From contig JBAYHR010000004.1 in the NCBI GenBank assembly GCA_041666045.1, positions 4,996 to 68,995 of the forward strand: a stretch of DNA of 64,000 nt, read 5' to 3'. A model generated the notes under the pieces. The model saw only the letters and a list, made by a program, of their open reading frames with translations, was not told the origin of the DNA and did no database searches. This DNA is from Minisyncoccota bacterium (lineage in GTDB: Bacteria > Patescibacteriota > Minisyncoccia > Phycocordibacterales > UBA9973). A program made the position numbers and the translations under genes. Below, piece by piece: positions 4,112 through 48,585 of this stretch (position 1 is its first letter; the number at the start of each line of letters is the position of its first letter).

Positions 4112-4129
4112 AATATATATAATATAAAG

Positions 4130-5329: not shown

Positions 5330-5824
5330 TTATCTAGTAACAGAAATAGTTGCCAAAAGCTCAGCATCAGGAGCAGCTACTGTGATTCTATCATTAGCTG
5401 TTTTTAAAATTGTATATCCAACACCAATATCACCAACAGCCCAAGAAGGATCTTTTGGAATAGCAGTTATATATTTTTCCAAATCAGTTAATACAGAAAG
5501 ATTAGTAAAGGAATTTGCTACACAAGTAGCATCTGCTGTTGCGGGAGTCCAACAAATTTCTCCTACGGCAACACCAATTGCTGGAAGTTCTGTTGGAAGA
5601 ACACCACCATTATCTATGGTATATTGATAAACTGCATTCAAGATAGTATTAACATCACTTCTTCTTTGAGCATTTCTTGATTCAGCTAATTGCTTTGCAG
5701 GATTGATAGCGATAATAACTATTGCTGCTAAAATGGCTATCATTGCAATAACTAACAAAACTTCTAGAAGAGTAAAACCTTTTTGTTGCTTAAACTTATT
5801 TTTGAACAAATTAAACATTTTCAT
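5330..5824 (-). CDS. pilA: Type IV pilin (major pilin candidate), prepilin-type N-terminal cleavage/methylation domain
   Basis: Class III signal KG|FTLLEVLLVIAMIAILAAI with Glu at +5 after the predicted cleavage site; 164 aa. Confidence 0.65.
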   Translation of the reverse strand: MKMFNLFKNKFKQQKGFTLLEVLLVIAMIAILAAIVIIAINPAKQLAESRNAQRRSDVNTILNAVYQYTIDNGGVLPTELPAIGVAVGEICWTPATADATCVANSFTNLSVLTDLEKYITAIPKDPSWAVGDIGVGYTILKTANDRITVAAPDAELLATISVTR

Positions 5825-8860: not shown

Positions 8861-10661
8861 AAATATTTTGAGTATGAATAGGAGATGCAACTCTTAATAA
8901 TTCTTCAAGCGTGGTTATGCCGGCTTTTACTTTTTCTAAACCATCTTGAAATAAATTTTTTGCGCCTTGTGTTTTTGCCAAATCCCAAATTTGCTTTGCT
9001 GAAGGATTTTTTAAAATAAGATCGTGAACTTCTGGTGTTATATGCAAAAATTCAAAAAGCGCTGTTCTACCTTTATATCCTGTATTATTACAAGACTTAC
9101 AACCTGCACCTTTATATAAAACCATTTCCTTTTCTAAATATTCATCTGTAAAAAATTTATTTATATTATAATTTTTTAATTCATCTTCAACTTTACAATT
9201 ATCACAAATCTTTTGAACTAAACGTTGTGAAATAATCAATTCAAGGGTAGAAGCTAGAAGAAATGGACTAATACCCATATCTATAAACCTTGGTATGGCT
9301 GTCGCAGCATCATTGGAATGAAATGTTGAAAGAAGTAAGTGTCCTGTTAAAGCAGCTCCTATTGCAATTTGAGCAGTATCTTCATCACGTATTTCCCCAA
9401 CTAATATAATATTTGGGTCTTGTCTTACTATAGACTGCAAACCTTTAGCAAAAGTAAGGTTAGTTTGTGGGTTAACTTGAACTTGATTTATACCTGGAAT
9501 TTTATATTCAACTGGATCTTCTATTGTTGTAATATTTACTCCAGAATTATTCAAAACTTTTAATATAGAATAAGCTGTAGTCGTCTTACCAGAACCTGTA
9601 GGCCCTGTTACAACAATCATTCCAAATGGTTTTTTTGACGCCTCTCCAATAATTGCTTGATGATCTTGAGAAAGTCCAATGTCACTAAGTGAAAAACTTC
9701 TAATATTTTCTGAAAGTATACGGACAGCTATTTTTTCACCATCAAGTGTTGGCAATATTGAAACTCTCATATTAATCGTCACATTATTTTTAACATATCG
9801 TATCGCTCCGTCTTGAGCGGAAAAATGCTCATCTGTGCGCAGATATGCTTGTACTTTAATTCTATTTAAAACATTTTCATAATATTTTTTTGCAAAACGT
9901 CCAACTTCTTGCAAAATACCATCAATTCTAAAACGTACAATAACTTCATTCTCTTGCGGTTCAAAATGAATATCAGAACTTAAATATTGCAAAGCATCAT
10001 TAAATATTTCTTCAATTATTTCTGGTGCAATTCCTCTACCAGAATTTATTATTTCAATAAAACGAGCCTTCAGTGATCTATTATAATTTTTAAATGATTT
10101 ATCAATATCTTCTGAAAGAGAATAATATAATTTAATAACTTTTTTAGTTTCAAAAAATTTTTCTAAAACAGATATATGATTTTTCAAATCTTTTGGCACA
10201 TCAGTGGTTATAAAAATATTTTTATTATCTTCTTTTAAAAATACAGCTCTGTATTTCTTGGCAATTTCTTCTGGGATTCTTAATACTTGTTCAGCTGTTG
10301 CTGGATTTGAACTAAGATCAAAATAAGAAACACCGAACCATTCTGCAATAGCTTCTCCTAAAATATTATTGTTGATTAAACCTTTAATTAATAAACATTC
10401 AATGATAGATATATTATTAGCACTAGAAAACTTTTCAGCCTGTTTAATATCTTCTGGAGTAACATATTTTTTACGTAATAAAATATCTTCAACGACAATC
10501 TCGCCTGCTAAATATTCTTTAATTATCTTTTTTTCTATTAGATAATCTAAAATTGATATATTTTTAGATTTTGCCAACTTTTCTGCTTTTTTTAGATCTT
10601 CACTAGTAATATATCTTCTTTGAACTAAAATATTTTTTACGTTTTGATTAGTTGTATCCAT
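8847..10661 (-). CDS. pilB: Type IV pilus assembly ATPase PilB (GspE family)
   Basis: Walker A VVTGPTGSGKTTT, Asp/His boxes, C-terminal CxxC tetracysteine motif, N-terminal GSPII_E-N repeats. Confidence 0.9.
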   Translation of the reverse strand: MDTTNQNVKNILVQRRYITSEDLKKAEKLAKSKNISILDYLIEKKIIKEYLAGEIVVEDILLRKKYVTPEDIKQAEKFSSANNISIIECLLIKGLINNNILGEAIAEWFGVSYFDLSSNPATAEQVLRIPEEIAKKYRAVFLKEDNKNIFITTDVPKDLKNHISVLEKFFETKKVIKLYYSLSEDIDKSFKNYNRSLKARFIEIINSGRGIAPEIIEEIFNDALQYLSSDIHFEPQENEVIVRFRIDGILQEVGRFAKKYYENVLNRIKVQAYLRTDEHFSAQDGAIRYVKNNVTINMRVSILPTLDGEKIAVRILSENIRSFSLSDIGLSQDHQAIIGEASKKPFGMIVVTGPTGSGKTTTAYSILKVLNNSGVNITTIEDPVEYKIPGINQVQVNPQTNLTFAKGLQSIVRQDPNIILVGEIRDEDTAQIAIGAALTGHLLLSTFHSNDAATAIPRFIDMGISPFLLASTLELIISQRLVQKICDNCKVEDELKNYNINKFFTDEYLEKEMVLYKGAGCKSCNNTGYKGRTALFEFLHITPEVHDLILKNPSAKQIWDLAKTQGAKNLFQDGLEKVKAGITTLEELLRVASPIHTQNIYDKK

Positions 10662-27009: not shown

Positions 27010-27083
27010 TGGGAGATCGTCTAATGGTAGGACAATGGTTTCTGGAACCATTTATCTAGGTTCGAATCCTAGTCTCCCAGCCA
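27010..27083 (+). tRNA. tRNA-Gln (anticodon CTG), CCA encoded
   Basis: Manual fold: acceptor TGGGAGA/TCTCCCA, D-stem GTCT/GGAC, anticodon stem ATGGT/ACCAT with loop TTCTGGA, T-arm CTAGG-TTCGAAT-CCTAG, discriminator G, then CCA. Confidence 0.8.
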
Positions 27084-27094
27084 AAAAATAGAAT
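27077..27094 (+). repeat. 18-bp direct repeat CCAGCCAAAAAATAGAAT (copy 1, overlaps tRNA-Gln 3' end)
   Basis: Exact second copy at 30405-30422. Confidence 0.6.
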
Positions 27095-27230
27095 CGCCGT
27101 TTTCGCCAAAATTCGGAGCGTCGCAAAGCGACGCGACTGGGGTTGACTTTTTGACTTCAATATGTTATACTTTATATCAATAAAAGTTATCTGAAAACAC
27201 TAAATATAAACCTTTTAAATCTATAAAACC

Positions 27231-27842
27231 ATGGCAATTAAAGAAACATCCATCGGTGAAACTTTTACCGATGACCAAAAGAGACTGATCGCTCTTTACG
27301 AAAAACAAATCGACGATCAACTATTAAATTATTATGTTGAAGGTAAAAAATTAGATGTTAAACCTGAACCTTACCCAAACTTTCACAAAGTTGGCAAAAA
27401 TCTCGGATATGGTTGCGACGAAAGAGTAGTGAGTGAAATTCTAAGAAAATACAGAGAGGCTGGGTGGTTAATCGAATGGGTATTTAACGAATTCCAAAGG
27501 AGCGGAGATTGGGTTTTTAGGTTAAAGAAGATCGACAGCTTTGCTGACTTTAAGGGAAAAAACTTAAAAATTTCTTTTACCTGCAAAAACCCTAAAATCG
27601 TGGTTACGGAACATGAATTGATTATTCCTATATTAGGAGCATGTAAAACCAAAGTTGTTTCTGAAACTAAGGAAGATCTAGATCTAATTGAGTACGTGAA
27701 CTTTTGTATACCATCTAATTTATATATAACAGATGTTAATATAATAAAATACGTAAGGTATTACAACAAGGATAACCATTGGATGGTCTGTCTTCAAGAC
27801 GAAACCTTTGTTTTAGAAAATTTGAAGGTTGAGATAATTTAA
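27231..27842 (+). CDS. Hypothetical protein (GC ~40%, higher than surroundings)
   Basis: 203-aa ORF; composition differs from flanks. Confidence 0.4.
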   Translation: MAIKETSIGETFTDDQKRLIALYEKQIDDQLLNYYVEGKKLDVKPEPYPNFHKVGKNLGYGCDERVVSEILRKYREAGWLIEWVFNEFQRSGDWVFRLKKIDSFADFKGKNLKISFTCKNPKIVVTEHELIIPILGACKTKVVSETKEDLDLIEYVNFCIPSNLYITDVNIIKYVRYYNKDNHWMVCLQDETFVLENLKVEII

Positions 27843-27966
27843 AAATTTCAACAAATAAAGCACATTGATATATTTTATATTGATGTGCTTTTTATTTATT
27901 AAATAATTACTTGTTTATACTTTCTAAATGTTTTTCAATATTAATAAAAAAACATTCATTTATAAT

Positions 27967-28497
27967 TCACTTATTAAAAGTTTCTGATGCTTCATTAAGC
28001 AAATCGTCTAAAGAATAAGTAATTTTAATATTTTTATTTTTCAAACCAACTTGTATTTCTACATCTCGCTTCCTTGAATAATTTGGATCTACTCCAACTA
28101 AAACAGATGCATTCCTTTCTAGAGCCGAGCCTAACTCAAATAGTACGATAGGATTTTCAGAACCAGGAGAAAACCAAAATAATAAAACTTGGGCTTCTCT
28201 AAGTCTAGAATATTCCCAAGTTATTTGTTCTTTTTCTGCATTTGGATCTTCCCTTGGATAATTTTTTCTTCGTGGATTAAAAACAGTAATATCCAAACCC
28301 TCGGAATCCATTTTTTTTACCATCTCGCTCTGCCAATCAGGACAATTTGTAATTCCCCCAGCAAGGAACAAAGATGGTTTTTCAGCCTTTTCTATACTTG
28401 GTGATTCTATGTATTGAATTGATTTAAAAACTTCCTTGGATAAATCCCCTTCTATTACCTTATTCTTTTTTTTGTCACCCGAAGTTATATTTTCCAT
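27967..28497 (-). CDS. Nucleoside 2-deoxyribosyltransferase-like (Rcl/DNPH1-fold) protein
   Basis: PSLFLAGGITNCPDWQ ... LFELGSA motifs; TTTACA-N17-TATAAT promoter just upstream of the second Met, so start set there. Confidence 0.5.
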   Translation of the reverse strand: MENITSGDKKKNKVIEGDLSKEVFKSIQYIESPSIEKAEKPSLFLAGGITNCPDWQSEMVKKMDSEGLDITVFNPRRKNYPREDPNAEKEQITWEYSRLREAQVLLFWFSPGSENPIVLFELGSALERNASVLVGVDPNYSRKRDVEIQVGLKNKNIKITYSLDDLLNEASETFNK

Positions 28498-28645
28498 TTT
28501 ATAATTATATTCCATTACCAGCTACTTGTAAACTACCCCAAACTTGCTTCACTCATAGGGTTACAGCCGAGGGGAACGATGTTTGAATTAGTATTTTAGG
28601 AAAATAAAAAAGAGAAAATAATTAGAATTATTCTCTCTTTAAATA

Positions 28646-28879
28646 TTATTTTGGTGTTGCAGGTCTTAGACGAAAATTTTCAAACATTTTTTCAATGTCT
28701 TTACGTCTAACTTTTTTACTTTGTCTGATAATCCATCTTTGTATGTATAATCTCTTTAAGGCTTCAGTGAATTCTCCTTTTTTATCAAGTTCATCAATGG
28801 ACTTTTCTTGTACTGGCTCTTCGATTTTAAAAATCAATTTACCTTTAACGATTTTAGTTCTTAACTTACATACTTTCAT
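28646..28879 (-). CDS. Hypothetical small basic protein
   Basis: ORF only. Confidence 0.3.
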   Translation of the reverse strand: MKVCKLRTKIVKGKLIFKIEEPVQEKSIDELDKKGEFTEALKRLYIQRWIIRQSKKVRRKDIEKMFENFRLRPATPK

Positions 28880-28902
28880 ATTATTGATTTTAATTGTGAA
28901 TA

Positions 28903-29445
28903 CTAAATAAATCCTTCTCCATAAATTAAATTCGCTAAATAAATCTGTTTTTCAATTAATAAACTAAACATTGATGAAATTCTAATTGATGGAAAGTTAA
29001 TCCATAGAAAAGCTACAAAAATAATACTCAAAAATAAAAGTAGACTAAAAAACAATGTTACAAAAATTGAAGTAAGTAACACCCCAGCGAGAAGAGCTAA
29101 AAAAGCTATTAAACAAATAAAAAATCCTGGATATTCATTATCCCCTGAAAATAACCAAATTAATGTAAATACAAGTATGCATAAAGTTTGACTTAAAAAA
29201 TATAGAGTAAAAGGATTAATCTCTTTTATTCTATTTTCAATTGAATTTAATAATTTTTTTACTCTTTTATTCTTTAAAATAAGATTTTTTAAAAAAGTAA
29301 TTGACATTAAAAACAACAAGATAGCTGTTCCAGCAATTAGTGGAATAATACTTGGTTGATTTAATAAACGACTTGGAAAATCTAAAGGGAACACTATAGT
29401 AATTGAAATTAAAACAATTACTAAAAAAACAATTATTTTTTTCAT
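28903..29445 (-). CDS. Hypothetical polytopic membrane protein
   Basis: Start moved to the internal Met (MKKIIVFLVIV) because the upstream part of the ORF overlaps a terminator and a repeat. Confidence 0.4.
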   Translation of the reverse strand: MKKIIVFLVIVLISITIVFPLDFPSRLLNQPSIIPLIAGTAILLFLMSITFLKNLILKNKRVKKLLNSIENRIKEINPFTLYFLSQTLCILVFTLIWLFSGDNEYPGFFICLIAFLALLAGVLLTSIFVTLFFSLLLFLSIIFVAFLWINFPSIRISSMFSLLIEKQIYLANLIYGEGFI

Positions 29446-29616
29446 ATTATTAGGTATTAAGTTATTTCGAAAAACTGTTATTTTATAAACAATAACATAA
29501 CTAAGTAAAAAATCAAGAACTTCGAATTTGGAAAGATGTTCGAATAAGTATTTTGGGGAAATAAAAAAACAGCTGGATAAAACCATGCTGTTTTAAAAAA
29601 AAATACCAATAATTCA

Positions 29617-30120
29617 TTAATCAAAATTGTATTTGCTCTTTATTTCTTTTACTTTAGCAGAAAGAAGTTCGTCTTTTTTTTCAACTGCACTAAATTCAGA
29701 ACAAAGTTTATTTGCTAAATCTCTTTCCTGAATTAACCAATCTTTAAACTTTTGGGAAGTTTGATTATCAGTGTACTTTAAGTCAAGAGAATACAGGAAT
29801 GTACTCGAGCTTGCATATAAATATTGCTCCAATAAAATCCATTGACATCTATCTAATGTATCAAGTCTATGTTTAATTTCGGCTTTTACCTGAAAAACAG
29901 ATTTACCCAACAATTTGAATTTGAAATTTTCTTTGCAAATGGAATCAAAATTATTGACTAAATTAGTGTAATAGTTGTACACAAATTTATAATTACGCAA
30001 AGCAACTTCACATTGTTTTTTCCTTATCAACATTGAATCAATAAATTGCTGCTCGGTCATTTGTGCTGAGCAAAAGAAAGATAGTGTCATAAGAGACACA
30101 AGAAACATTAATTTTTTCAT
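29617..30120 (-). CDS. Hypothetical secreted protein
   Basis: Signal peptide MKKLMFLVSLMTLSFFCSAQ. Confidence 0.4.
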   Translation of the reverse strand: MKKLMFLVSLMTLSFFCSAQMTEQQFIDSMLIRKKQCEVALRNYKFVYNYYTNLVNNFDSICKENFKFKLLGKSVFQVKAEIKHRLDTLDRCQWILLEQYLYASSSTFLYSLDLKYTDNQTSQKFKDWLIQERDLANKLCSEFSAVEKKDELLSAKVKEIKSKYNFD

Positions 30121-30404
30121 AATTATTAAATTTAAGGTGAATTTATTCTGTGAATTATCTTAATCCCCATTAAGAAACTAGGATAATCCACCGAACAAAT
30201 ACCAACCCAAACCAATTTCAAAGAATCATATTTGGTTATATGATATAATATTTATAGTTATTTGTCAACAATGCTCCGAACTTTGGATAAAGTTCGAATT
30301 TTTGTCACTTTTACCACTTTTTTAAAGTGCACGAGACGCGTCGAAATAATATTATAAAAATAACCTTACAGGGTAAAGCACTGAAAAGTTCTAACTCGAG
30401 AACG

Positions 30405-30422
30405 CCAGCCAAAAAATAGAAT
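30405..30422 (+). repeat. 18-bp direct repeat CCAGCCAAAAAATAGAAT (copy 2)
   Basis: Exact match to the tRNA-Gln 3' end and flank. Confidence 0.6.
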
Positions 30423-30461: not shown

Positions 30462-30884
30462 ATGAATGAAAACATGAACACAGGTTCAAATTCAGAAGAA
30501 ATAAAAGGACAACAAGAAAAAGAAAATTCTGAATTTTTAGCGAATTATCTTTTAAGACACCCCGAGCCAGTAATTTCTCCGGAAAGTTTAAGAGAAGCTG
30601 GGACAGAAATTATGGAATTAGAAGAAATGTTTATTTCATTTGAATTAAAACATTCTTTAGAAGAATTAAGTTCAATTATTGACCTTACTCCGGCAGATGC
30701 ACCAAATCATCCCGTACGAGAACCAGCAAAAGTTGCACTTATACCCATTGTTGCATTACTCAACACTTTAAAAAAAGAAACAAATATTTCTACTGAAAAA
30801 CACGAAGAATTAAAAGCAAAATATAAAAGACTATCAAGAGCTGTTGGAATGATAAATAATAATAAGGTTGACCACAATAGGTAA
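30462..30884 (+). CDS. Hypothetical protein
   Basis: ORF only. Confidence 0.35.
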   Translation: MNENMNTGSNSEEIKGQQEKENSEFLANYLLRHPEPVISPESLREAGTEIMELEEMFISFELKHSLEELSSIIDLTPADAPNHPVREPAKVALIPIVALLNTLKKETNISTEKHEELKAKYKRLSRAVGMINNNKVDHNR

Positions 30885-36140: not shown

Positions 36141-36169
36141 TCACAAATTCCTTTCTGCTTCAATAAACA
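36141..36169 (-). repeat. 29-bp direct repeat TCACAAATTCCTTTCTGCTTCAATAAACA (copy at RT 3' end)
   Basis: Identical to 39904-39932 at the prfB 3' end; encodes FIEAERNL plus TGA on the minus strand. Confidence 0.85.
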
Positions 36170-37163
36170 TACTAAGTTTATACCCATTCCCATGCCCCAG
36201 CATCCCCAAATACGAAGCAATGGTATTAGGTTTTTGATTATTCTTTAAATTCCTAAACATCCTTTTCTTTGTGCTATTTCGTAATACTCTGTGTTTAGGA
36301 AAATGTACCCAGCCTAAGAAATCCACACCTGAATAAATAGTTTTAATAAAAACTTTATCTGGATGCATAGTTAATTTTAATTCATTTTCTAAAAACTCTT
36401 TCATTTGTTCTAAAATATTTTCCAAATAATTTTTGTCTTGCGATAATATAACAAAATCATCAGCGTATCTTATATAATATTTCACTTTCAATTTATGTTT
36501 TACAAATTGATCAAATTCATTCATATAGATATTTACAAGGAGTTGAGAAGTTAAATTACCCAAAGGCAAACCTTTTGAAAGTGACACAAACTCTGCCATG
36601 GCAGAGTTTGTGTCACTTGTATAAAAACTATCTATAATATTATCTAAAAGCCAAATGATATCTTTATCTTTTATAAATTTTACTAAAATACTTTTTAAAA
36701 TATTATGATCAATACTCGCAAAGAATTTTTTAATATCACATTTTAAAACCCAACAGGTTTTTGAATTATTTTTACTAACTTTGCGAAAATAATCCCTAAA
36801 CTTATTCATTCCCTTATGAGTACCTTTCCATTTACGGCAAGAATATGAATCACTGATAAATTTTGAATCAAAGAAAAAATACATTTTTTGATAAAGAGCG
36901 TGATGCAATATCCTGTCACAAACAATGGCTTTATGTATATCACGAGGTTTTGGATCAGAAATTTTAAAAGCATAATATCCTGAATGTTTATAATTTTTTG
37001 TTTTTAAATCATTGTGAAGTTTTAATAAATTTTCCATTAAATTTCTTTGCCAAATTTGAACATCTTTTTTATTTGATTTTTCGCTCCTAAAATTTTTCCA
37101 CGCCAAAAGTAAATTTTCCAAAGATATGATATCATTGTAACTATGAATAAAAGTTTTTATCAT
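36141..37163 (-). CDS. Diversity-generating retroelement reverse transcriptase
   Basis: RT motifs including YIRYADDFVIL (YxDD) and the DGR-specific LGxxxSQ (LPLGNLTSQ); 340 aa; the last 8 codons are shared with prfB. Confidence 0.85.
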   Translation of the reverse strand: MIKTFIHSYNDIISLENLLLAWKNFRSEKSNKKDVQIWQRNLMENLLKLHNDLKTKNYKHSGYYAFKISDPKPRDIHKAIVCDRILHHALYQKMYFFFDSKFISDSYSCRKWKGTHKGMNKFRDYFRKVSKNNSKTCWVLKCDIKKFFASIDHNILKSILVKFIKDKDIIWLLDNIIDSFYTSDTNSAMAEFVSLSKGLPLGNLTSQLLVNIYMNEFDQFVKHKLKVKYYIRYADDFVILSQDKNYLENILEQMKEFLENELKLTMHPDKVFIKTIYSGVDFLGWVHFPKHRVLRNSTKKRMFRNLKNNQKPNTIASYLGMLGHGNGYKLSMFIEAERNL

Positions 37164-37176
37164 TCTTCTGATATTA

Positions 37177-37187
37177 CCCCCCCCCCC
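37177..37187. repeat. C11 homopolymer in the 31-bp divergent RT/avd intergenic region
   Basis: Direct reading; striking in a ~30% GC genome. Confidence 0.8.
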
Positions 37188-37194
37188 GACGATT

Positions 37195-37545
37195 TTGCCA
37201 GTTATGCAAAGGGTAAAAACTGTGTATATCCTATGGTTTGAATATTATAAAAAATTAGAAAAAACACACAAATACACGCTTGGTCAAAAAATTGATAATT
37301 TATTTATAGAAATAATAGAAGCCGTATCAATTGCCACATTTTTAGATAAAACAGAAAAACAACCCTGGATAAGACTTGCAATACGGAAATTAGATACAAT
37401 AAAAATACTTTTAATGATACTTTGGGAAACAAAATCTCTTGATAATAAAAAATATATAAACATTTCCAAACCAATAGATGAAATAGGCAGAATGCTCGGT
37501 GGTTGGAATGGACAGCTTACAAAACAAAACTCTCCCAATAAATAG
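37195..37545 (+). CDS. avd: DGR accessory variability determinant (Avd, four-helix-bundle protein)
   Basis: 116 aa basic protein; C-terminal IDEIGRMLGGWNGQL matches the Avd/TIGR02436 EVGRILGSWI region; helical pattern. Confidence 0.7.
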   Translation: MPVMQRVKTVYILWFEYYKKLEKTHKYTLGQKIDNLFIEIIEAVSIATFLDKTEKQPWIRLAIRKLDTIKILLMILWETKSLDNKKYINISKPIDEIGRMLGGWNGQLTKQNSPNK

Positions 37546-37563
37546 GGAGAGAAATGAAAAGAG

Positions 37564-37696
37564 TTGCGAGAGAGAAAAACAAAGCGATTGTTGCCACTCC
37601 ACTTGTTGTCTAAATTCCCATTATTGTTGTTAAGCCACAACCCATCGTTATTGCATTCCACATTGAAAATCCTAGGATTGCCATCGCGATCAGTAT
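37564..37696 (-). repeat. DGR template repeat (TR)
   Basis: 133-bp direct repeat of the VR; differs from the VR only at positions that are A on the sense (minus) strand. Confidence 0.85.
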
Positions 37697-38005
37697 ATAT
37701 AAACTATCATCTATGCCACCACCCTTAGAATGCTCTCCGGGTTGAATTTTATTTAGTATCTAAAATACTTCAATAGTTTATACCAAGTAATTTCATTTTT
37801 TAATGAAGTGTCTGCACACATTACACTATTTTTAATCTTAATTAAAAATATTCTGAATGCATGGATACTGGATTCGGTAGTGAAAAACCTTAATCTTTCA
37901 CATATTCACCTACTACCATTTTTATTTTATCATACTTTTTTTAAAAAAATTCAAAGTTCAAAAATCAAAGAGTCAAAAGAATTCTAAATTGCAAAATCCT
38001 AAGTT

Positions 38006-39859
38006 CTAATTCTTGCGAGAGAGAAAAACAAAGCGATAGTTGCCACTCCACCTGTCGCCTAAATTCCCATCATAGCTGTCAAGCCACAACCCATCGCCAT
38101 AGCATTCCACACCGAAAATCCTAGGACCGCCATCGCGATCAGCAATAGAATCCATCGCAATTCTTAACCATTCTCCCATAAGTTGATCTTTATAATTAAG
38201 TCTAAGCTCTGGACCAACTTGTGGTGGACATAATTCTAAACCAAGTTTTTTTGCTTTATTGTATATTTCTTTTAAAGTAGCTCCATTTGGAAAACCGAGT
38301 TGTTCTATTGAAAATGAAACTAGATTAATTTTTTCTTTTTGTTTTAATGGCTCTATTTTATTTAACATATCTTGAGCATAAGAATATATTTTCATTCCTT
38401 GTACTTTTATTTCTTTTGTATATTCTTCTGATGTTTTAGTTGTAAGTTCTATATTTTTTCTAAATATTTTCTTTTCAGGAAATGATTCATATAAATATTC
38501 AATATTTTTTGGAATCTTTTTTGCAATTTCCGGATTCCATTCTCCTATATATGCTTTAGTATTTTCGTTTATTTCATCTTTATTATATGCAATCTGTTCT
38601 GAATTGCATTCAAAAATAATTGATGCATCTTCTTTGATATTTCTTTGTTTTCTTAATTCTAAAATTCGTGGATCTTTTTCATAACCAAAACTTGAAATAG
38701 AATCATTCATCTCATATAGAAAAACTAAATCTTGTTTGGTAAATTGTTCATTCTTTTCTTGTTTTTTAACAAGCTCAGTCACTTTTTTCATATCATTTGA
38801 TTTTTTATCAAATTTTTCTCCACCCGGCAAAGAATGATATTTTTCTTGTGCAGTATCTATCAAAACAGGTTCTAATTCTTGTCGGTGATTCACTCCACGC
38901 ACTTCTGCTATTTCATCTCCTTGCATTCTAATTGCAATTCTGGGCTCAGAATAATTACCAGCTGTTCCTTTAGTGTAATAAACATAAAAATCACCACCTT
39001 GCAGATGACTTGGCGCGCTTCCTTCGGCTGTACACCAGCCTGTGCCTTTGCCACGAAGTGCATTTTCTAAAATATGATAATCAGAACCTTGATCATATTT
39101 TACCCATTCACCTTTTAATGATTCACGATTTAATGTTCCAGCTGTTTCTATTTGAGCAAAAGTGTAAAGTTTTACAAAATCTTTCTTTTCTATCATCTTT
39201 TCTAAATCAGCTCTTTTTTGTTTTTGATCTTCCCCTGTGAATTCTTGGCTACCGATACCAGTAGTTAGCATTCTGTAAACAAAACCAAGCGCTTCGGAAT
39301 TTATTTCTGGAAATGGAGCAATTGTATAATCTGTGCGTTTACTATACTCTCCTTTTTCTTTATTAAGAGTTCCCATTTTAGACAAATTGCGAACAATAAA
39401 ATACCGAAACCAAGTCGGATATTCTGCATCGTTTTGTTTTAAGTAATCAAGCCAGCCATTTAATGATTTTACTTGAATTTCTCTTTTTTCTTTAGCAAGA
39501 TTTTCATAACCTTTTATTAGCTCATCATTATCTTCCAACTTCATTATTTCATTGCTTCTGCCTTGTTCTATTGCAATTCTTTTTTCTGATTCATAAAGAC
39601 CAACAGCGATTTTTGTAAGTGTATCTTCATCTTTAGTGTCTATGGCTAAATCTTTTATTATTTTATTTTTTAGTAATTCCCAACCTCGCTCGTCTTCCAC
39701 TATTTTATCAAGACGATCTAAATACGCTTCTATTCTTTCATCACGAGAATGCGGAGCAAATTTTCTTTCTGGATCTTTTTTAGCTTTTTCTACTGCTCGA
39801 ACAACCGGTTTTGAACCCGGTAAATCTGAATATTTTTGTTCAAGAAAATTCTTTTTCAT
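38006..39859 (-). CDS. DGR target protein with C-terminal variable (CLec/FGE-like) region
   Basis: 617 aa, no signal peptide; C-terminus ...GVECYGDGLWLDSYDGNLGDRWSGNYRFVFLSRKN is encoded by the VR. Confidence 0.8.
   Translation of the reverse strand: MKKNFLEQKYSDLPGSKPVVRAVEKAKKDPERKFAPHSRDERIEAYLDRLDKIVEDERGWELLKNKIIKDLAIDTKDEDTLTKIAVGLYESEKRIAIEQGRSNEIMKLEDNDELIKGYENLAKEKREIQVKSLNGWLDYLKQNDAEYPTWFRYFIVRNLSKMGTLNKEKGEYSKRTDYTIAPFPEINSEALGFVYRMLTTGIGSQEFTGEDQKQKRADLEKMIEKKDFVKLYTFAQIETAGTLNRESLKGEWVKYDQGSDYHILENALRGKGTGWCTAEGSAPSHLQGGDFYVYYTKGTAGNYSEPRIAIRMQGDEIAEVRGVNHRQELEPVLIDTAQEKYHSLPGGEKFDKKSNDMKKVTELVKKQEKNEQFTKQDLVFLYEMNDSISSFGYEKDPRILELRKQRNIKEDASIIFECNSEQIAYNKDEINENTKAYIGEWNPEIAKKIPKNIEYLYESFPEKKIFRKNIELTTKTSEEYTKEIKVQGMKIYSYAQDMLNKIEPLKQKEKINLVSFSIEQLGFPNGATLKEIYNKAKKLGLELCPPQVGPELRLNYKDQLMGEWLRIAMDSIADRDGGPRIFGVECYGDGLWLDSYDGNLGDRWSGNYRFVFLSRKN
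38013..38145 (-). repeat. DGR variable repeat (VR) at the 3' end of the target gene
   Basis: About 17 substitutions relative to the TR, all at TR adenines (13 A->G, 4 A->T in coding sense); the 3'-terminal ~30 nt are identical (IMH-like). Confidence 0.85.
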
Positions 39860-44475: not shown

Positions 44476-47400
44476 TTAAATTTCAAGTTTAATGTTACCA
44501 ACAATTTTTTCTTTACCTTCGTCGTCTTCTATCCATTCTGAATATCCAATCCTGAAAAAATTCCACCCTGCGCTTTCTAAAACTTGCTGTCTTTGTATAT
44601 CACTTTCCACATAAATACCATAAGCTTCGTCTATATTATCTTTAAAATGAGTAGGACCATCACATTCAATTGCTAGCTGATTACCATTCTTTAAATTTGT
44701 AATAACAAAGTCAATTTTAAAACCACAACTTTCTACTTGATTTTGAATTGTATACCCCCTACCAAGTTTCTTTTTTAATAAATAATAAAATTCTTCTTCA
44801 AAGAAACTATCAAATTTTTTAAGGGCTAATTTAGAAGCTGAAACCTCTCCGTTATCTCTAACATATTCCAAGTATTTCTTTATCCATATACCATTAGGAA
44901 TTTTCTCAATAGGTAAACTTAAAATACAATGAACTTGTAATCTTGCTCGTGAAAATGCAACGTTCACTCTACCAGCATTTATGTCAGCTTTTATATCTCC
45001 AGTTTCCCCAGTTAATGGAATATACTGCCTTTTTTGAGAAGGGTCTCTAATTACAAAAGAGTAGATTATAATATCTTTTTCGTCTCCCTGTATACCTTCA
45101 ATCACCGCAATTTTTAGCTTTTCGCTTTCTTTAATCCTATTATCTTCAAAAACCTTTCTAATTAGTTCTGCTTGGTCATTAAAAAAAGTTAATACCGCAA
45201 ATGTTTTTCCCTCGTATTTCGGATCATCAACCATTTCTTGATATAGTTCAAAAGCTTTTATAGCTTCAGCTCTATTAGTATTATCACTTATTTCTCCTAC
45301 ACCATTATTTTGAATGTTATGAAGAACCATTATTCGGTTTGTATCTTGGTAGGTTAGATATTTATTATTTAAAGCTATCAAACGTTTACCTTTTGGTTCA
45401 TAAAAGTATTTATTACTAAAACCTATCAACTCCATTGGAGAACGATAATGATATTGGAGTATTTTAGGTATACCAAATCTTGTTTTTGCAATATCTAAAA
45501 CTGATTGAACGGCTGTTCCAGTTGGTTTTATTTGTAAACTTTCAGGAACTTTGAAACGACTAGCAAGTTGGTCAAAGGCATTGTTTGATTTAAACATTAC
45601 GGTGCTATCCCTCATTTGTTCAGGGTCACCTACAAATATAGATTTCTTGGCTCTATACATTGAAGGAATTGTGTAAGCGATATTACATTGAGAAGCTTCG
45701 TCAAACACTACATAATCAAATAAATTTGCCACCAAAGGAATAAGCCGACTAGCGTCGTCTAAATCCATAATCCAAACAGGAACTACATTTAATATGGTCT
45801 CAAAGTTATTTGGGTCGCTCTTTAGTTTATCAAAAGTTTTAAATGCTTTTTTTGATTTTTTAAATGCTTTTTGTAATTCTTGAAGTTTTCTGTATATCTT
45901 AACCTGTGAGACATTTCTCTTGATATTATCTTCTATAATTGCCGACAAATACTGTGAAATAATTTCTTTTCTTGTAATATAATTTTTGCTGGTTACTTCC
46001 TTTTTGAGTTTAGTAATTTCATCAACTAAATTTTTTTGGTCGTGATTTAGCGTAATACGGTCTGATAATTTTACTACTAGTTCAGTAGCTGTTATAGATT
46101 TTTCTTTCAAGAATTTAAATAATTCGGAAAGGTTCTCCCTTGATAAATCTAAATTATCTTCTATTTCTTTAAGAGAAATTTCTAGCTTTTCGTTTTCAAT
46201 GGTTGCTTCCCAATAACTACAAAATCGAAGTAGCTGTTCTAGTTCTTGTGTAGCAATATGGCGAGATATGTCTTTCCCAAGAATAGAATTTATTTCTTCA
46301 TAGATTTCTTTTGGTAATTTGGTTAAATGTGATTTAAGTCGGATCTTTCGGCTCAAATTATTTATGTATCTTCCTAGATTAAATGACCTATCAAAGCCAG
46401 TTTTTTTAACGTCAAGAAGAACGGTTTTAACCAAATCTGAAAAAGCAAAATCAGAAAATAAACCTCTATCAAGATTGTATTTTCTTGAAATCGCTTCCAA
46501 GCTCTCAATTAAGGTATTGTTTTCTGATATTCTTTTTTGTGTTTTTATATATGAACTATGTAATTCTTCAGTAAGGTTTGTTAAAATCTTTTCTTCATTC
46601 AATTCAGGAAGTTCTTGCAAAAAATCATACTCACACTTTTTTTCTTCAAGTTCATACACATTTCTTTCAAGTGCGATAGACCTGTCTCTTTTACTTAAAC
46701 TTTCGTCGGTGGTTTGAGTAAATTCTCCTAAATTTGAATTGTCTTTTATGTTATTTTTTTGAGCGCCGTAAGTATCCAAAGAAGCTAATTGAGACGATAT
46801 TGTGTCACTTTCTTCGTCATTTAATTGCTGAAATTTTACGCTAGGTATGTAGCCAAAAAGTAAAGGCACTTCCAGCGTTTTCAATTTGTCTTTTACAACA
46901 CGCAGGGCTTGTGGCTTTTGACTTACAAATAATACTTTATTCTTATTAACTGCTAAATGTGAAATTATATTGGAAATAGTTTCCGATTTTCCTGTTCCGG
47001 GCGGTCCTTGAATTATGGAAGCTTTATTGCCCAAAAGAGAGGTTGTTGCTCTTTGGAATTTATCGTATGGGAATGGAAAATATAAAGCTTTTTCTTCGCA
47101 AACATCAGAATTGATATTTAAACCTTCTTCTGAAAACCAGCCAGATAGAGAAGTATTTTCTAAAAGTTCTTCTTTTTCTCTTGAAAGTTTTGTTAGGTCT
47201 TCAACTAAAAAGAAATTTGCTCTTGGTGCTAATGTTAATCTCAATTCTTCAAGTGTGAAAGATTTTTCATTGAAAGTTGCTTCGGTTAGTTTCAGCTTTG
47301 CTTTTAAAATATGCCATAAATCTAAAAAAGCTTTTTCGGAAGTAATGGGAATAGAGAACGCTTCCTCGCTTTCCATTTTTACATAATCATTTAAAAATTC

Positions 47401-48009
47401 GTAAACTAAATCTTCTTTTTTATATGTTCTAAAGATTTCATAGAGTGGGGGTAAATTTAAACGAACTTCAAAATCAACTGGTGTAATTGAGTATCTGTCT
47501 GTATTATTTTTATCCTTTTCTTTATCAACCCTCACTGGTAGTGAAAATAAATAAAATTGTTTTAACACTAATTTTGCTTCAGCATTTTCAATAAGCTTTA
47601 GTTGTATATTTTCTTCAACTTCTTCCTCGTTTTCTATTATTGGTTCTTCTAAAACTTCAAAGTCAAACTTACCGAAGCGAAGAATTGTTTCTTTCGTGAA
47701 GGAGTCATTTTTTGCCTTATTGTATATTTCGTCTATCTGCAATGCGAGAGCTTTTTCTGCTTTATACTGCTCTGCAATTTCTTCAGTAATATCCTTTGGG
47801 TCGGTATTATAATAACAATCCAAGTTAACAATTTCACTCAAATTGCCGTCAGTATCTCCATTGATAAGATTTGTTAAAGAAAAGTATTTTTGCGGTAATT
47901 TAATGTCTAGTGATGTCCCCCTATTAAAACCTGTCGGCCTAGTTAAACTTAAATATCCCAAACAGTATTTAATATAAGAATTTAAGGAAAATTCCATAAG
48001 TAAACTCAA
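44476..48009 (-). CDS. Large SF1 helicase (AAA_11/AAA_12, Upf1/DNA2-like) fused to a C-terminal DUF559/Vsr-like endonuclease domain
   Basis: Walker A IIQGPPGTGKSETI, Walker B VVFDEASQ, C-terminal ...FKIDFVITNLKNGNQLAIECDGPTHF restriction-endonuclease-like domain; 1177 aa. Confidence 0.7.
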   Translation of the reverse strand: MSLLMEFSLNSYIKYCLGYLSLTRPTGFNRGTSLDIKLPQKYFSLTNLINGDTDGNLSEIVNLDCYYNTDPKDITEEIAEQYKAEKALALQIDEIYNKAKNDSFTKETILRFGKFDFEVLEEPIIENEEEVEENIQLKLIENAEAKLVLKQFYLFSLPVRVDKEKDKNNTDRYSITPVDFEVRLNLPPLYEIFRTYKKEDLVYEFLNDYVKMESEEAFSIPITSEKAFLDLWHILKAKLKLTEATFNEKSFTLEELRLTLAPRANFFLVEDLTKLSREKEELLENTSLSGWFSEEGLNINSDVCEEKALYFPFPYDKFQRATTSLLGNKASIIQGPPGTGKSETISNIISHLAVNKNKVLFVSQKPQALRVVKDKLKTLEVPLLFGYIPSVKFQQLNDEESDTISSQLASLDTYGAQKNNIKDNSNLGEFTQTTDESLSKRDRSIALERNVYELEEKKCEYDFLQELPELNEEKILTNLTEELHSSYIKTQKRISENNTLIESLEAISRKYNLDRGLFSDFAFSDLVKTVLLDVKKTGFDRSFNLGRYINNLSRKIRLKSHLTKLPKEIYEEINSILGKDISRHIATQELEQLLRFCSYWEATIENEKLEISLKEIEDNLDLSRENLSELFKFLKEKSITATELVVKLSDRITLNHDQKNLVDEITKLKKEVTSKNYITRKEIISQYLSAIIEDNIKRNVSQVKIYRKLQELQKAFKKSKKAFKTFDKLKSDPNNFETILNVVPVWIMDLDDASRLIPLVANLFDYVVFDEASQCNIAYTIPSMYRAKKSIFVGDPEQMRDSTVMFKSNNAFDQLASRFKVPESLQIKPTGTAVQSVLDIAKTRFGIPKILQYHYRSPMELIGFSNKYFYEPKGKRLIALNNKYLTYQDTNRIMVLHNIQNNGVGEISDNTNRAEAIKAFELYQEMVDDPKYEGKTFAVLTFFNDQAELIRKVFEDNRIKESEKLKIAVIEGIQGDEKDIIIYSFVIRDPSQKRQYIPLTGETGDIKADINAGRVNVAFSRARLQVHCILSLPIEKIPNGIWIKKYLEYVRDNGEVSASKLALKKFDSFFEEEFYYLLKKKLGRGYTIQNQVESCGFKIDFVITNLKNGNQLAIECDGPTHFKDNIDEAYGIYVESDIQRQQVLESAGWNFFRIGYSEWIEDDEGKEKIVGNIKLEI

Positions 48010-48054: not shown

Positions 48055-48387
48055 TTATGCAACATTAAACTTCTCAAAAACCTGAAATACGTCCACTGTT
48101 TTCTTCCTAATATCAATCTCGTCGTCATATACGATAAGCATTTCAAGCGAAGAATGTCGGCTAAACTTTCTTACGTCTCTGACATCAAGTTTTTTGAGCA
48201 AGGCAGTAATGAAGAAGTGGCGAAATCCGTGAACTCCTTTTTCAATCCCAACTTCTTTACACAAAGAACCTAGCTGGCGTTTTATTGTCATTGTGGTTAT
48301 CCTTTCACTTTTTCTATTTCCCATACTTTTAAACAAAGCTCCACTTCCGACTTTATTAGTTTTTATGTATTCTCTCAAAACATTCAC
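48055..48387 (-). pseudogene. Truncated tyrosine recombinase/integrase (C-terminal catalytic fragment only)
   Basis: HGFRHFFITALL (box II HxxR) and SRHSSLEMLIVY (catalytic Tyr region); the usual N-terminal ~250 aa are absent. Confidence 0.6.
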
Positions 48388-48438: not shown

Positions 48439-48512
48439 GAGATTGAACCGGAGACCTCGTTTCCGCCAGAGGCGGACAAGCTTACCAAGAAATGCGGCAT
48501 TTATCCCGTAAG
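48439..48512 (-). other. Partial duplicate of the tRNA-Thr(GGT) 3' half (anticodon loop to T-arm) with a 19-nt insertion after the anticodon loop
   Basis: TTCTTGGTAAG[CTTGTCCGCCTCTGGCGGA]AACGAGGTC matches the tRNA segment TTCTTGGTAAGAACGAGGTC; there is not enough 5' sequence for a complete tRNA. Confidence 0.5.
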
Positions 48513-48585
48513 AGCCGACAATCAGATTTGCACTGATGACCTCGTTCTTACCAAGAACGTGCTCTACTACCTGAGCTATGTCGGC
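48513..48585 (-). tRNA. tRNA-Thr (anticodon GGT) with atypical T-loop (TGCAAAT)
   Basis: Manual fold: acceptor GCCGACA/TGTCGGC, D-arm GCTC-AGGTAGT-AGAGC, anticodon stem CGTTC/GAACG with loop TTGGTAA, T-stem ATCAG/CTGAT; positions 55 and 57 are non-canonical. Confidence 0.7.

What the first reader, a model, noticed from the sequence alone, without database searches (positions are those of the whole stretch)
27010..30422. An 18-bp direct repeat of the tRNA-Gln 3' end delimits a 3.3-kb segment with a foreign-looking gene set
CCAGCCAAAAAATAGAAT (27077-27094: the last 7 nt of tRNA-Gln including CCA, plus 11 nt of flank) recurs exactly at 30405-30422. The interval encodes a higher-GC hypothetical protein (27231-27842), a nucleoside 2-deoxyribosyltransferase-like protein, a secreted protein with a Bacteroidetes-like signal peptide (FFCSAQ), and small and membrane proteins. 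No integrase is present, so this would be a degraded or satellite island. Two intergenic regions inside it share a conserved ~35-bp block (28569-28605 and 29533-29567, GATGTTYGAATWAGTATTTTRGGRAAATAAAAAA) next to terminator hairpins, which suggests duplicated regulatory modules.
Basis: partly seen in the sequence, partly recalled or inferred. Interest (0 to 1): 0.5.

Follow-up and report, generated by a model that had tools for sequence, protein, structure and literature searches.

The report
Integrase-less islet at a tRNA-Gln gene
A 3.3-kb block of accessory genes sits just after a glutamine tRNA gene in an uncultured, small-genome bacterium (Paceibacterota) and is bracketed by an exact 18-base copy of the tRNA's end, which is the usual scar of a mobile element that has lost its own insertion enzyme; this is an ordinary kind of genomic island in a little-studied lineage.

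Summary
tRNA-Gln(CTG) lies at 27010-27083. The 18-mer CCAGCCAAAAAATAGAAT occurs only at 27077-27094 and 30405-30422 (0.02 matches expected by chance). None of the other five tRNAs in the window has a comparable repeat.

The window comes from a Candidatus Paceibacterota (CPR) genome. The interval sits in a variable slot between tRNA-Gln and pyrG. That gap ranges from 6 bp to 6.2 kb in 13 relatives.

Close relatives lack the interval. One distant relative (L057) has the same repeat architecture, ending at the same TAGAAT, but carries different cargo.

The 48 bases right of the first repeat (27095-27142) are 96% identical in genomes whose tRNA-Gln is only 80-89% identical. They are absent from a genome with an identical tRNA. 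That end therefore moves horizontally.

No recombinase is encoded in the interval, and composition is not unusual.

Best reading (confidence about 0.6): an integrase-less, CIME-like or decayed islet inserted by site-specific recombination at the tRNA-Gln 3' end. No intact relative with an integrase, no circular junction and no exact empty site was found. It is a new member of a known kind, of modest interest.

The parts
27010..27083 (+). tRNA-Gln(CTG) with encoded CCA; integration target
   Evidence: ARAGORN; Rfam RF00005 64.2 bits. An identical gene is found in relative L004, and 96-97% identical genes in L057 and L016.
27077..27094 (+). Left copy of the 18-bp direct repeat (attL core): last 7 nt of the tRNA plus 11 nt of trailer
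   Evidence: two exact copies, 0.02 expected by chance. The trailer A[A/G]AAATAGAA also follows tRNA-Gln in L016, L095 and L096, which lack the element arm, so the trailer is native target sequence.
27095..27142 (+). Conserved, horizontally mobile element-side arm (CGCCGTTTTCGCCAAAATTCGGAGCGTCGCAAAGCGACGCGACTGGGG; 52% GC measured over 27084-27142); includes a perfect hairpin at 27118-27134
   Evidence: Near-identical arms follow tRNA-Gln in L098, L099 and L057. The 57 nt after CCA are 96% identical where the tRNA is 80-89% identical, and 51% identical where the tRNA is 100% identical. Three assemblies break inside or just after it. No significant RNA fold (z -0.44) and no Rfam match.
27106..27123 (+). 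Left copy of the inverted subterminal motif CCAAAATTCGGAGCGTCG
   Evidence: the only other match in the window (3 mismatches) is at 30269-30286 on the - strand; 0.00 expected. TTCGGAGC and CGACGCG each occur once forward (27112, 27129) and once reverse (30273, 30337) in the 64 kb.
27143..27171 (+). Inward-facing promoter-like site (TTGACT-17-TATACT with TG) for the 203-aa gene
   Evidence: 10 of 12 matches. This is a consensus match only.
27231..27842 (+). 203-aa protein of unknown function, in the tRNA-proximal position
27857..27891 (+). Hairpin terminator between the convergent 203-aa and 182-aa genes
   Evidence: 16-pair stem followed by a T run, z -3.9.
27967..28515 (-). Nucleoside 2-deoxyribosyltransferase-like protein (182 aa; the start is probably the second ATG, giving 176 aa)
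   Evidence: PF15891 E 1.4e-19; phrog_30579 E 8.6e-14; tblastn homologs at up to 45% identity in huge phages.
28573..28611 (+). Conserved 39-nt intergenic block, copy 1
   Evidence: D3 (87% identity); (only two copies in the window). Its high-coordinate end overlaps by 3 nt the terminator hairpin at 28609-28640.
28646..28879 (-). 77-aa basic protein of unknown function
   Evidence: ORF; no family hit.
28903..29445 (-). Membrane protein of about 180 aa (the ORF is open up to 29586)
   Evidence: ORF and hydrophobic sequence; no family hit.
29530..29568 (+). Conserved 39-nt intergenic block, copy 2
   Evidence: D3. Its high-coordinate end overlaps by 3 nt the terminator hairpin at 29566-29594.
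29617..30120 (-). 167-aa protein with an N-terminal signal peptide
   Evidence: ORF (MKKLMFLVSLMTLSFFCSAQ...); no family hit.
30240..30268 (-). Inward-facing promoter-like site (TTGACA-17-TATCAT) for the minus-strand gene string
   Evidence: 11 of 12 matches. This is a consensus match only.
30269..30296 (-). Right, inverted copy of the subterminal motif (CCAAAGTTCGGAGCATTG, 30269-30286), partly overlapping the hairpin at 30277-30296
   Evidence: hairpin (z -2.4 on the - strand).
30405..30422 (+). Right copy of the 18-bp direct repeat (attR core)
   Evidence: There is no tRNA-like signal around it (Rfam E-value scan; ARAGORN).
30462..30884 (+). First gene beyond the islet (140 aa). It is not part of the element but marks the native flank.
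   Evidence: A 73% identical homolog lies between tRNA-Gln and the 376-aa gene in L041, with only one DUF218 gene in place of the islet.

Best explanation
The 3.3-kb interval (27095-30404) is a small genomic islet that entered the chromosome of a Paceibacterota (CPR) bacterium by site-specific recombination at the 3' end of tRNA-Gln(CTG). The two 18-bp repeats are the attL and attR cores. The incoming DNA carried its own copy of the tRNA end plus trailer, so the tRNA stayed intact. The 48 nt right of attL are the element's own arm. The islet encodes no recombinase. It is therefore either a fossil or an element that can move only if an integrase is supplied in trans (CIME-like). Its cargo is two inward-facing transcription units: a 203-aa unknown protein, and a string made of secreted protein, membrane protein, 77-aa protein and nucleoside-deoxyribosyltransferase-like protein. 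Shown here: the repeat, its significance, absence of the interval from relatives, the horizontal behaviour of the left arm, and the lack of a recombinase. Inferred: that a tyrosine-type integrase made the junctions, and that the islet is or was mobilisable.
For: 1. The 18-bp repeat includes tRNA bases, is unique in the window and is non-random. None of the other five tRNAs shows such a repeat.

2. Synteny. The frame pyrG ... tRNA-Gln ... 376-aa gene is conserved in 13 relatives, but the tRNA-to-pyrG gap runs from 6 bp to 6218 bp. The window's gap is 5704 bp. L007 (flank protein 86% identical) has only DoxX in the gap. L004 (87% identical flank, identical tRNA) diverges immediately after CCA.

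3. A distant genome, L057, has CTCCCAGCCAAGAAATAGAAT at the tRNA end and CTCCCAGCCAAGTTTTAGAAT 2.1 kb downstream. Both repeats end at the same TAGAAT as in the window. The same arm follows the left copy, but the cargo is a single 599-aa gene.

4. The arm is decoupled from the tRNA. Against L098 the tRNA is 80% identical and the trailer 96%. Against L099 the figures are 89% and 96%. Against L004 they are 100% and 51%, and against L016 97% and 53%.

5. L016, L095 and L096 carry the native trailer AAAAATAGAA followed by unrelated sequence. They look like unoccupied targets.

6. Contigs from three assemblies end within or just after the arm, as expected for a sequence shared between different contexts in one community.

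7. The same window holds a truncated tyrosine-integrase gene next to tRNA-Thr. Integrase-borne tRNA insertion followed by decay therefore does happen in this genome.
Against: - No integrase-bearing relative of the islet, no attP or circular junction, and no exact empty site (tRNA + AAAAATAGAAT + TTGTTCGAATTC...) was found. Four viral-contig scans gave nothing relevant.
- The element-side sequence left of attR is not clearly conserved between the window and L057.
- Composition is indistinguishable from the host, so either the event is old or the donor was a close relative.
- The inverted subterminal motifs lie 12 nt from the left repeat and 119 nt from the right repeat. They do not fit the usual layout of integrase core sites.
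Confidence: 0.6

Rival explanations
1. The islet was inserted by a non-integrase route, through homing or transposition with target duplication. The tRNA-Gln 3' end would be a hotspot for small cassettes that duplicate the target, and the inverted motifs would be cassette ends.
For: In relatives L065 and L025 a roughly 340-nt insert encoding a small GIY-YIG protein is flanked by direct repeats of the tRNA-Gln 3' end: 30 nt identified by k-mer search (about 68 nt by eye) in L065, and 18 nt in L025. The L025 insert has 23-nt terminal inverted repeats that abut those direct repeats. The window islet has inverted motifs near both ends that are unique in the 64 kb.
Against: The window islet has no GIY-YIG gene, transposase or other nuclease. 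Its inverted motifs are subterminal, asymmetric (12 nt against 119 nt from the repeats) and in reversed order at the two ends. Each sits just upstream of an inward promoter-like site, which fits a regulatory site as well as an element end. An 18-bp target duplication would be unusually long for a transposase.
Confidence: 0.15
2. The 48-nt arm and trailer are a native functional sequence downstream of tRNA-Gln (a processing, termination or operator site). The second 18-mer would be the remnant of a decayed tandem tRNA-Gln copy. The interval would then be ordinary variable chromosome, not a mobile unit.
For: The trailer A[A/G]AAATAGAA follows tRNA-Gln of both isoacceptors in several genomes. Degenerate versions of the arm occur in L097 and L073 and, after the second repeat, in L057. 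The motif also precedes a promoter at the other end of the islet.
Against: The arm is more conserved than the tRNA across species, yet it is missing from genomes with the same tRNA, which is the opposite of vertical inheritance. There is no tRNA-like signal upstream of the second 18-mer. The arm has no significant fold.
Confidence: 0.15
3. The repeat is a coincidence or a local slip-duplication with no mechanistic meaning.
For: The 11 trailer bases are A-rich and of low complexity. Composition of the interval is host-like.
Against: Shuffles expect 0.02 matches. Seven of the 18 bases are the GC-rich tRNA end. The repeat boundaries recur in L057.
Confidence: 0.05

Closest known systems
CIMEs (cis-mobilizable elements): decayed ICE/IME remnants that keep attL and attR but have lost their integration and transfer genes (definition in PMC5704250; catalogued in ICEberg 2.0, PMC6323972)
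   Same: Flanked by direct repeats that include the 3' end of the target gene. No recombinase or transfer genes. Small accessory cargo. Sits at a site where other elements can accrete.
   Different: No parental ICE or IME with the same att site is known, and conjugation genes are not evident in this lineage. Neither derivation from such an element nor mobilisation in cis has been shown. The host is a CPR bacterium, not a Firmicute.
Tycheposons and the tRNA-seeded genomic islands of Prochlorococcus (bioRxiv 10.1101/2020.12.28.424599)
   Same: A streamlined genome. Flexible genes concentrated next to particular tRNA genes. Partial-tRNA repeats flank cargo modules. Different cargo appears at the same tRNA in different strains.
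   Different: Tycheposons are defined by a lineage-specific tyrosine (rarely serine) recombinase and replication hallmark genes. Neither is present here. Size is 3.3 kb against roughly 10-20 kb.
Classical tRNA-linked genomic islands and prophage remnants with the crossover at the extreme 3' end of the tRNA (established knowledge; not tested against a database here)
   Same: The att core spans the acceptor 3' strand, CCA and a few bases of trailer, and the tRNA is kept intact.
   Different: There is no integrase next to the tRNA, no compositional bias and no phage genes. Only the NDT-like gene has phage homologs.

Membership tests
tRNA-integrated genomic island (classical definition) | Inserted at the 3' end of a tRNA gene and flanked by direct repeats that include tRNA bases | tested here: met
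   the control with the other five tRNAs is.
tRNA-integrated genomic island (classical definition) | Absent from close relatives (variable presence) | tested here: met
   L007 and L004 lack it. The tRNA-to-pyrG gap is 6-6218 bp in 13 relatives.
tRNA-integrated genomic island (classical definition) | Encodes an integrase or recombinase | tested here: not met
   No hit in Pfam, PHROGs, NCBIfam or PADLOC. The fold of the 203-aa protein is not recombinase-like.
tRNA-integrated genomic island (classical definition) | Atypical base or oligonucleotide composition | tested here: not met
   GC is 28.7% against 30.0%; k=3 z 0.67; k=4 z 1.4.
tRNA-integrated genomic island (classical definition) | An exact empty site (attB) observable in a conspecific genome | tested here: inconclusive
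   The metagenome scan for the tRNA end plus trailer gave 5 loci, none with the window's right flank. L016, L095 and L096 show the native trailer followed by other sequence.
CIME (cis-mobilizable element) | Retains attL and attR but lacks integration and transfer genes | tested here: met
CIME (cis-mobilizable element) | Derived from, or sharing att sites with, an integrase-bearing ICE or IME | tested here: inconclusive
   The shared arm was found in L057, L098 and L099. L057 carries no integrase, and the L098 and L099 contigs end 59 and 126 nt after the tRNA.
CIME (cis-mobilizable element) | Excision or mobilisation when an integrase is supplied | not testable with these tools
   This needs read-level junction detection or an experiment.
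Tycheposon | Site-specific tyrosine or serine recombinase plus replication hallmark genes | tested here: not met
Tycheposon | Located at a tRNA gene, flanked by partial tRNA, inside a variable island | tested here: met
Insertion sequence / transposon (TIR plus TSD) | Terminal inverted repeats abutting the target duplication, and a transposase | tested here: not met
   The inverted motifs lie 12 and 119 nt from the repeats and in reversed order at the two ends. No transposase was found.
Integron cassette array / CALIN | attC sites with RYYYAAC ... GTTRRRY cores after each cassette | tested here: not met
   Read directly from the sequence: the intergenic hairpins are AT-rich terminators without these cores. 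No IntI was found.
Prophage or phage satellite | Capsid, terminase, replication or interference genes; similarity to phage DNA | tested here: not met
   PHROGs gave one significant hit of unknown function, to the NDT-like protein (all other matches had E-values above 0.03). No DNA match to 50,697 phage records. The att and arm sequences are absent from IMG/VR.

The most novel reading that the evidence does not exclude
The 48-57-nt arm marks a so-far undescribed family of very small, integrase-less cargo cassettes in Paceibacterota. They would be inserted at, and perhaps exchanged between, tRNA-Gln genes (both CUG and UUG isoacceptors) by a recombinase acting in trans. The hairpin-plus-TTCGGAGC motif would serve as the recognition or regulatory site at both cassette ends. 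This would be a tycheposon-like 'plug-in' system for gene flux in CPR bacteria, which otherwise have few known routes of horizontal transfer.
Probability: 0.2. Interest if true: 0.6.

Novelty: new member of a known kind. Interest (0 to 1): 0.33.

Why it matters
CPR/Patescibacteria have tiny genomes and few recognised mobile elements, so how they gain and lose accessory genes is poorly documented. This locus gives a concrete, sequence-defined insertion hotspot (tRNA-Gln next to pyrG). It also gives a short conserved arm that can serve as a search handle to find the complete element and its recombinase in metagenomes. On its own, an integrase-less islet at a tRNA gene is a familiar object. A specialist would not find it surprising.

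Tried and rejected
- **Blocks as decayed att sites (tandem accretion).** An alignment scan with the tRNA 3' 45-mer did not rank the 39-nt blocks among the top 40 places in the window. Rejected.
- **attR as a tRNA-Gln pseudogene.** No ARAGORN call and no Rfam signal, even at E-value up to 10. Rejected.
- **The arm as a structured RNA.** Fold z-score is -0.44 and there is no Rfam family. Not supported.
- **Defence island.** No PADLOC hit.
- **Phage or plasmid origin of the DNA.** No blastn match. Only the NDT-like protein has phage homologs.
- **attP in viral contigs.** The two 18-mer hits (L013, L014) have unrelated flanks and look like chance matches. Arm patterns gave nothing.
- **Extending L099 through its neighbouring protein.** I used the last homolog search and one look-up for this, only to learn that the 40-kb contig ends 126 nt after the tRNA.
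- **Wasted look-ups.** Two look-ups failed on TTG-start ORFs that are not on record.
- **Local alignment of the left end against the reverse-complemented right end.** AT-rich noise dominated. Only the short GC-containing motifs are significant.
Full report
**Source and context**

The window is part of ENA contig ERZ27249449:k141_645408 (70,981 bp; window base 1 is record base 5053). The products of both genes flanking the tRNA are each also recorded from NCBI with a longest contig of 111,511 bp, where they are named 'MAG: Candidatus Paceibacterota bacterium'. GC is about 30% throughout. The genes around the finding are ordinary chromosomal genes. They include a copper ATPase with CsoR, a methyltransferase, a 376-aa protein with more than 8000 homologs that are mostly Paceibacterota/Nomurabacteria, then tRNA-Gln, and 5.7 kb further on pyrG (CTP synthase), ftsX and ftsE.

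**The observation**

- tRNA-Gln(CTG) is at 27010-27083 with an encoded CCA.
- The 18-mer CCAGCCAAAAAATAGAAT is present exactly twice, at 27077-27094 and 30405-30422, in the same orientation. No third copy appears even with 2 mismatches allowed. Shuffles expect 0.02 matches.
- An extension upstream to 35 nt at 77% adds almost nothing to an alignment score. I treat the repeat as 18 bp.
- As a control, I looked for repeats of the 3' end of all six tRNAs in the window. Only tRNA-Gln has one that includes tRNA bases.
- The second copy is not a tRNA pseudogene.
- The 39-nt intergenic block (28573-28611 and 29530-29568, 87% identity) is real and confined to the interval. On the transcribed minus strand each copy starts with the U-tract of a strong AT-rich hairpin.

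**Is the interval an insertion?**

I fetched the neighbourhood of homologs of the 376-aa flank protein.

- In 13 relatives that carry all three markers, the order pyrG ... tRNA-Gln ... 376-aa gene is kept. The tRNA-to-pyrG gap ranges over 6, 538, 584, 691, 1439, 1821, 1967, 1979, 2008, 4051, 4303, 4402 and 6218 bp. The window's gap is 5704 bp.
- L007 (flank protein 86% identical) has only a DoxX gene in the gap. It also has a quite different tRNA-Gln allele.
- L004 (87% identical flank protein, tRNA 100% identical) diverges immediately after CCA and carries other genes.
- None of the five islet proteins is encoded in the roughly 100 fetched loci. The exception is the 203-aa protein, whose homologs lie in unrelated, tRNA-less contexts.
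- The first gene after the right repeat (140 aa) has a 73% identical homolog in L041. There it sits between a tRNA-Gln and the 376-aa gene, with a single DUF218 gene where the islet would be.

The interval is variable.

**A second instance and a mobile arm**

L057 is a Nomurabacteria MAG from Lake Baikal whose flank protein is 61% identical. It has CTCCCAGCCAAGAAATAGAAT at the tRNA end (L057 7684-7704, minus strand) and CTCCCAGCCAAGTTTTAGAAT 2.1 kb downstream (5565-5585). That is 18 of 21 bases matching, and both copies end at the same TAGAAT as in the window. The cargo there is a single 599-aa gene.

Right of the left repeat, L057 and the window share CGCCGTTTTC[A/G]CCAAAATTCGGAGCGTCG. A metagenome scan for the tRNA end plus trailer returned five loci.

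- L098 and L099 carry the arm through ...GCAAAGCGACGCGAC[G]GGGG.
- L097 has a degenerate version, as does L073 from the genome scan.
- L095 and L096, together with L016, have the trailer AAAAATAGAA followed by unrelated sequence.

Pairwise identities to the window show that the arm does not travel with the tRNA:

| Locus | tRNA identity | Identity of the 57 nt after CCA |
|---|---|---|
| L098 | 80% | 96% |
| L099 | 89% | 96% |
| L004 | 100% | 51% |
| L016 | 97% | 53% |

A non-coding stretch that is better conserved than the adjacent tRNA across species, yet missing where the tRNA is identical, is best explained by horizontal spread. This is what the element-side arm of an attL would look like, with the crossover falling in the shared acceptor end plus trailer.

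Three assemblies also break there. L098 ends 59 nt after CCA. The 40-kb L099/L100 contig ends 126 nt after CCA. The Logan contig L003 begins at window 27108, which is one k-mer (31 nt) before the base (27139) at which the window and the L098/L099 versions of the arm differ. That last point is my inference from the coordinates.

**Anatomy of the islet**

Reading inward from the left, the features are:

- the repeat, then the arm (27095-27142), which includes a perfect 7-bp hairpin at 27118-27134;
- a promoter-like site (27143-27171) and the 203-aa gene.

Reading inward from the right, the features are:

- the repeat, then 119 nt, then an inverted and diverged copy of the arm motif (30269-30286, overlapping a hairpin at 30277-30296);
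- a promoter-like site (30268-30240) and the minus-strand gene string: 167-aa secreted protein, membrane protein, 77-aa protein and NDT-like protein.

TTCGGAGC and CGACGCG each occur once in forward orientation (left end) and once in reverse orientation (right end) in the whole 64 kb. The two ends are therefore related in inverted orientation. The motifs are subterminal, asymmetric and in reversed order, and both precede inward promoters. They could be recombinase or accessory-protein sites, or operator or insulator sites. I cannot tell which.

**What it is not**

- It encodes no recombinase, transposase, nuclease, phage structural gene or known defence gene.
- The composition test is negative.
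- There is no DNA similarity to phage or plasmid records. The att and arm sequences are absent from IMG/VR.
- The NDT-like protein does have homologs in very large phages, at up to 45% identity, so part of the cargo belongs to the phage/accessory gene pool.

**Mechanism**

The best-supported account is integrase-mediated, site-specific insertion at the extreme 3' end of tRNA-Gln, followed by loss of the integrase or reliance on one supplied in trans. Supporting context is that the same window contains a truncated tyrosine-integrase gene at 48055-48387, which matches Pfam PF00589 positions 77-166 of 172, immediately downstream of tRNA-Thr(GGT). This genome has therefore hosted, and degraded, such elements.

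The main rival is a non-integrase cassette mechanism. In L065 and L025 a roughly 340-nt insert encoding a small GIY-YIG protein is flanked by direct repeats of the tRNA-Gln 3' end, and the L025 insert has 23-nt terminal inverted repeats. The tRNA-Gln 3' end is thus a general insertion hotspot in this clade. Five of about 32 species-level loci with the tRNA show such duplications. More than one mechanism may operate there.

**Comparison with known systems and verdict**

Functionally the islet matches the definition of a CIME: attL and attR are retained and the integration and transfer genes are lost (PMC5704250). Ecologically it resembles the tRNA-seeded islands built by tycheposons in Prochlorococcus (bioRxiv 10.1101/2020.12.28.424599). 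It fails the defining recombinase criterion of tycheposons, and no parent element is known.

I rate it a new member of a known kind, of modest interest. Its main value is the 48-nt arm as a handle to find the complete element in CPR metagenomes.

Noticed in passing
window 36141-39859 (RT 36141-37163 -, Avd-like 37284-37661 -, repeats 37564-37693 and 38013-38142, 617-aa ORF 38006-39859 -): A diversity-generating retroelement. An RVT_1 reverse transcriptase and a bAvd gene lie next to a 130-nt repeat pair of 88% identity. One copy falls in the 3' end of the 617-aa ORF and is the likely variable repeat; the other is the template repeat.
   Followed up: partly
window 48055-48387 (-), tRNA-Thr(GGT) 48512-48585 (-), helicase 44476-48009 (-): A truncated tyrosine-integrase gene (110 aa, only Pfam PF00589 positions 77-166 of 172) lies directly downstream of tRNA-Thr. 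It is followed by a 1177-aa AAA_11/AAA_12 helicase with a MTES_1575/DUF559 nuclease domain. This looks like a decayed integrated element at a second tRNA. No 3'-end repeat was found for it. A tRNA-like fragment seems to lie between the tRNA and the integrase remnant (my reading).
   Followed up: partly
L065 708-1087 and L025 2304-2697 (both minus strand relative to the locus): In two Nomurabacteria/Paceibacterota genomes a roughly 340-nt insert encoding a small GIY-YIG protein sits right after tRNA-Gln. It is flanked by direct repeats of the tRNA 3' end: 30 nt exact by k-mer search and about 68 nt by eye in L065, and 18 nt in L025. The L025 insert also has 23-nt terminal inverted repeats (CTTCGGCAAGCTCA.../...TGAGCTTGCCGAAAG). 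This looks like a miniature mobile cassette.
   Followed up: partly
L007 4627-4698 versus window 27010-27083: Two genomes whose flank proteins are 86% identical carry very different tRNA-Gln(CTG) alleles at the same position. One has acceptor TGGGAGA with encoded CCA; the other has TACGGGT without CCA. The upstream promoter region stays similar right up to the first base of the tRNA.
   Followed up: no
L097 about 3925-4540: About 600 nt of GC-rich, non-coding sequence follow tRNA-Gln(UUG) in a metagenome contig. It has terminator-like ends and no Rfam match at gathering threshold. It may be an unannotated structured RNA.
   Followed up: no
L098 (contig end), L099/L100 (contig start), L003 (contig start = window 27108), L006 (contig end inside tRNA-Gln): Four independent assemblies break within or just after tRNA-Gln and its conserved trailer. 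This suggests the sequence is shared among co-occurring strains with different flanks.
   Followed up: partly
L004 about 9770-9800 (minus strand) versus window 28573-28611: The relative L004 has a sequence resembling the 39-nt islet block (GTTCAAATTAGTATTATGGAGAAAAAAAC) next to a hairpin just downstream of its tRNA-Gln. It also has an 86-aa ORF 43% identical to the N-terminal half of the 203-aa islet protein, 1.6 kb away. Its tRNA-adjacent region may be a diverged variant of the same islet.
   Followed up: no
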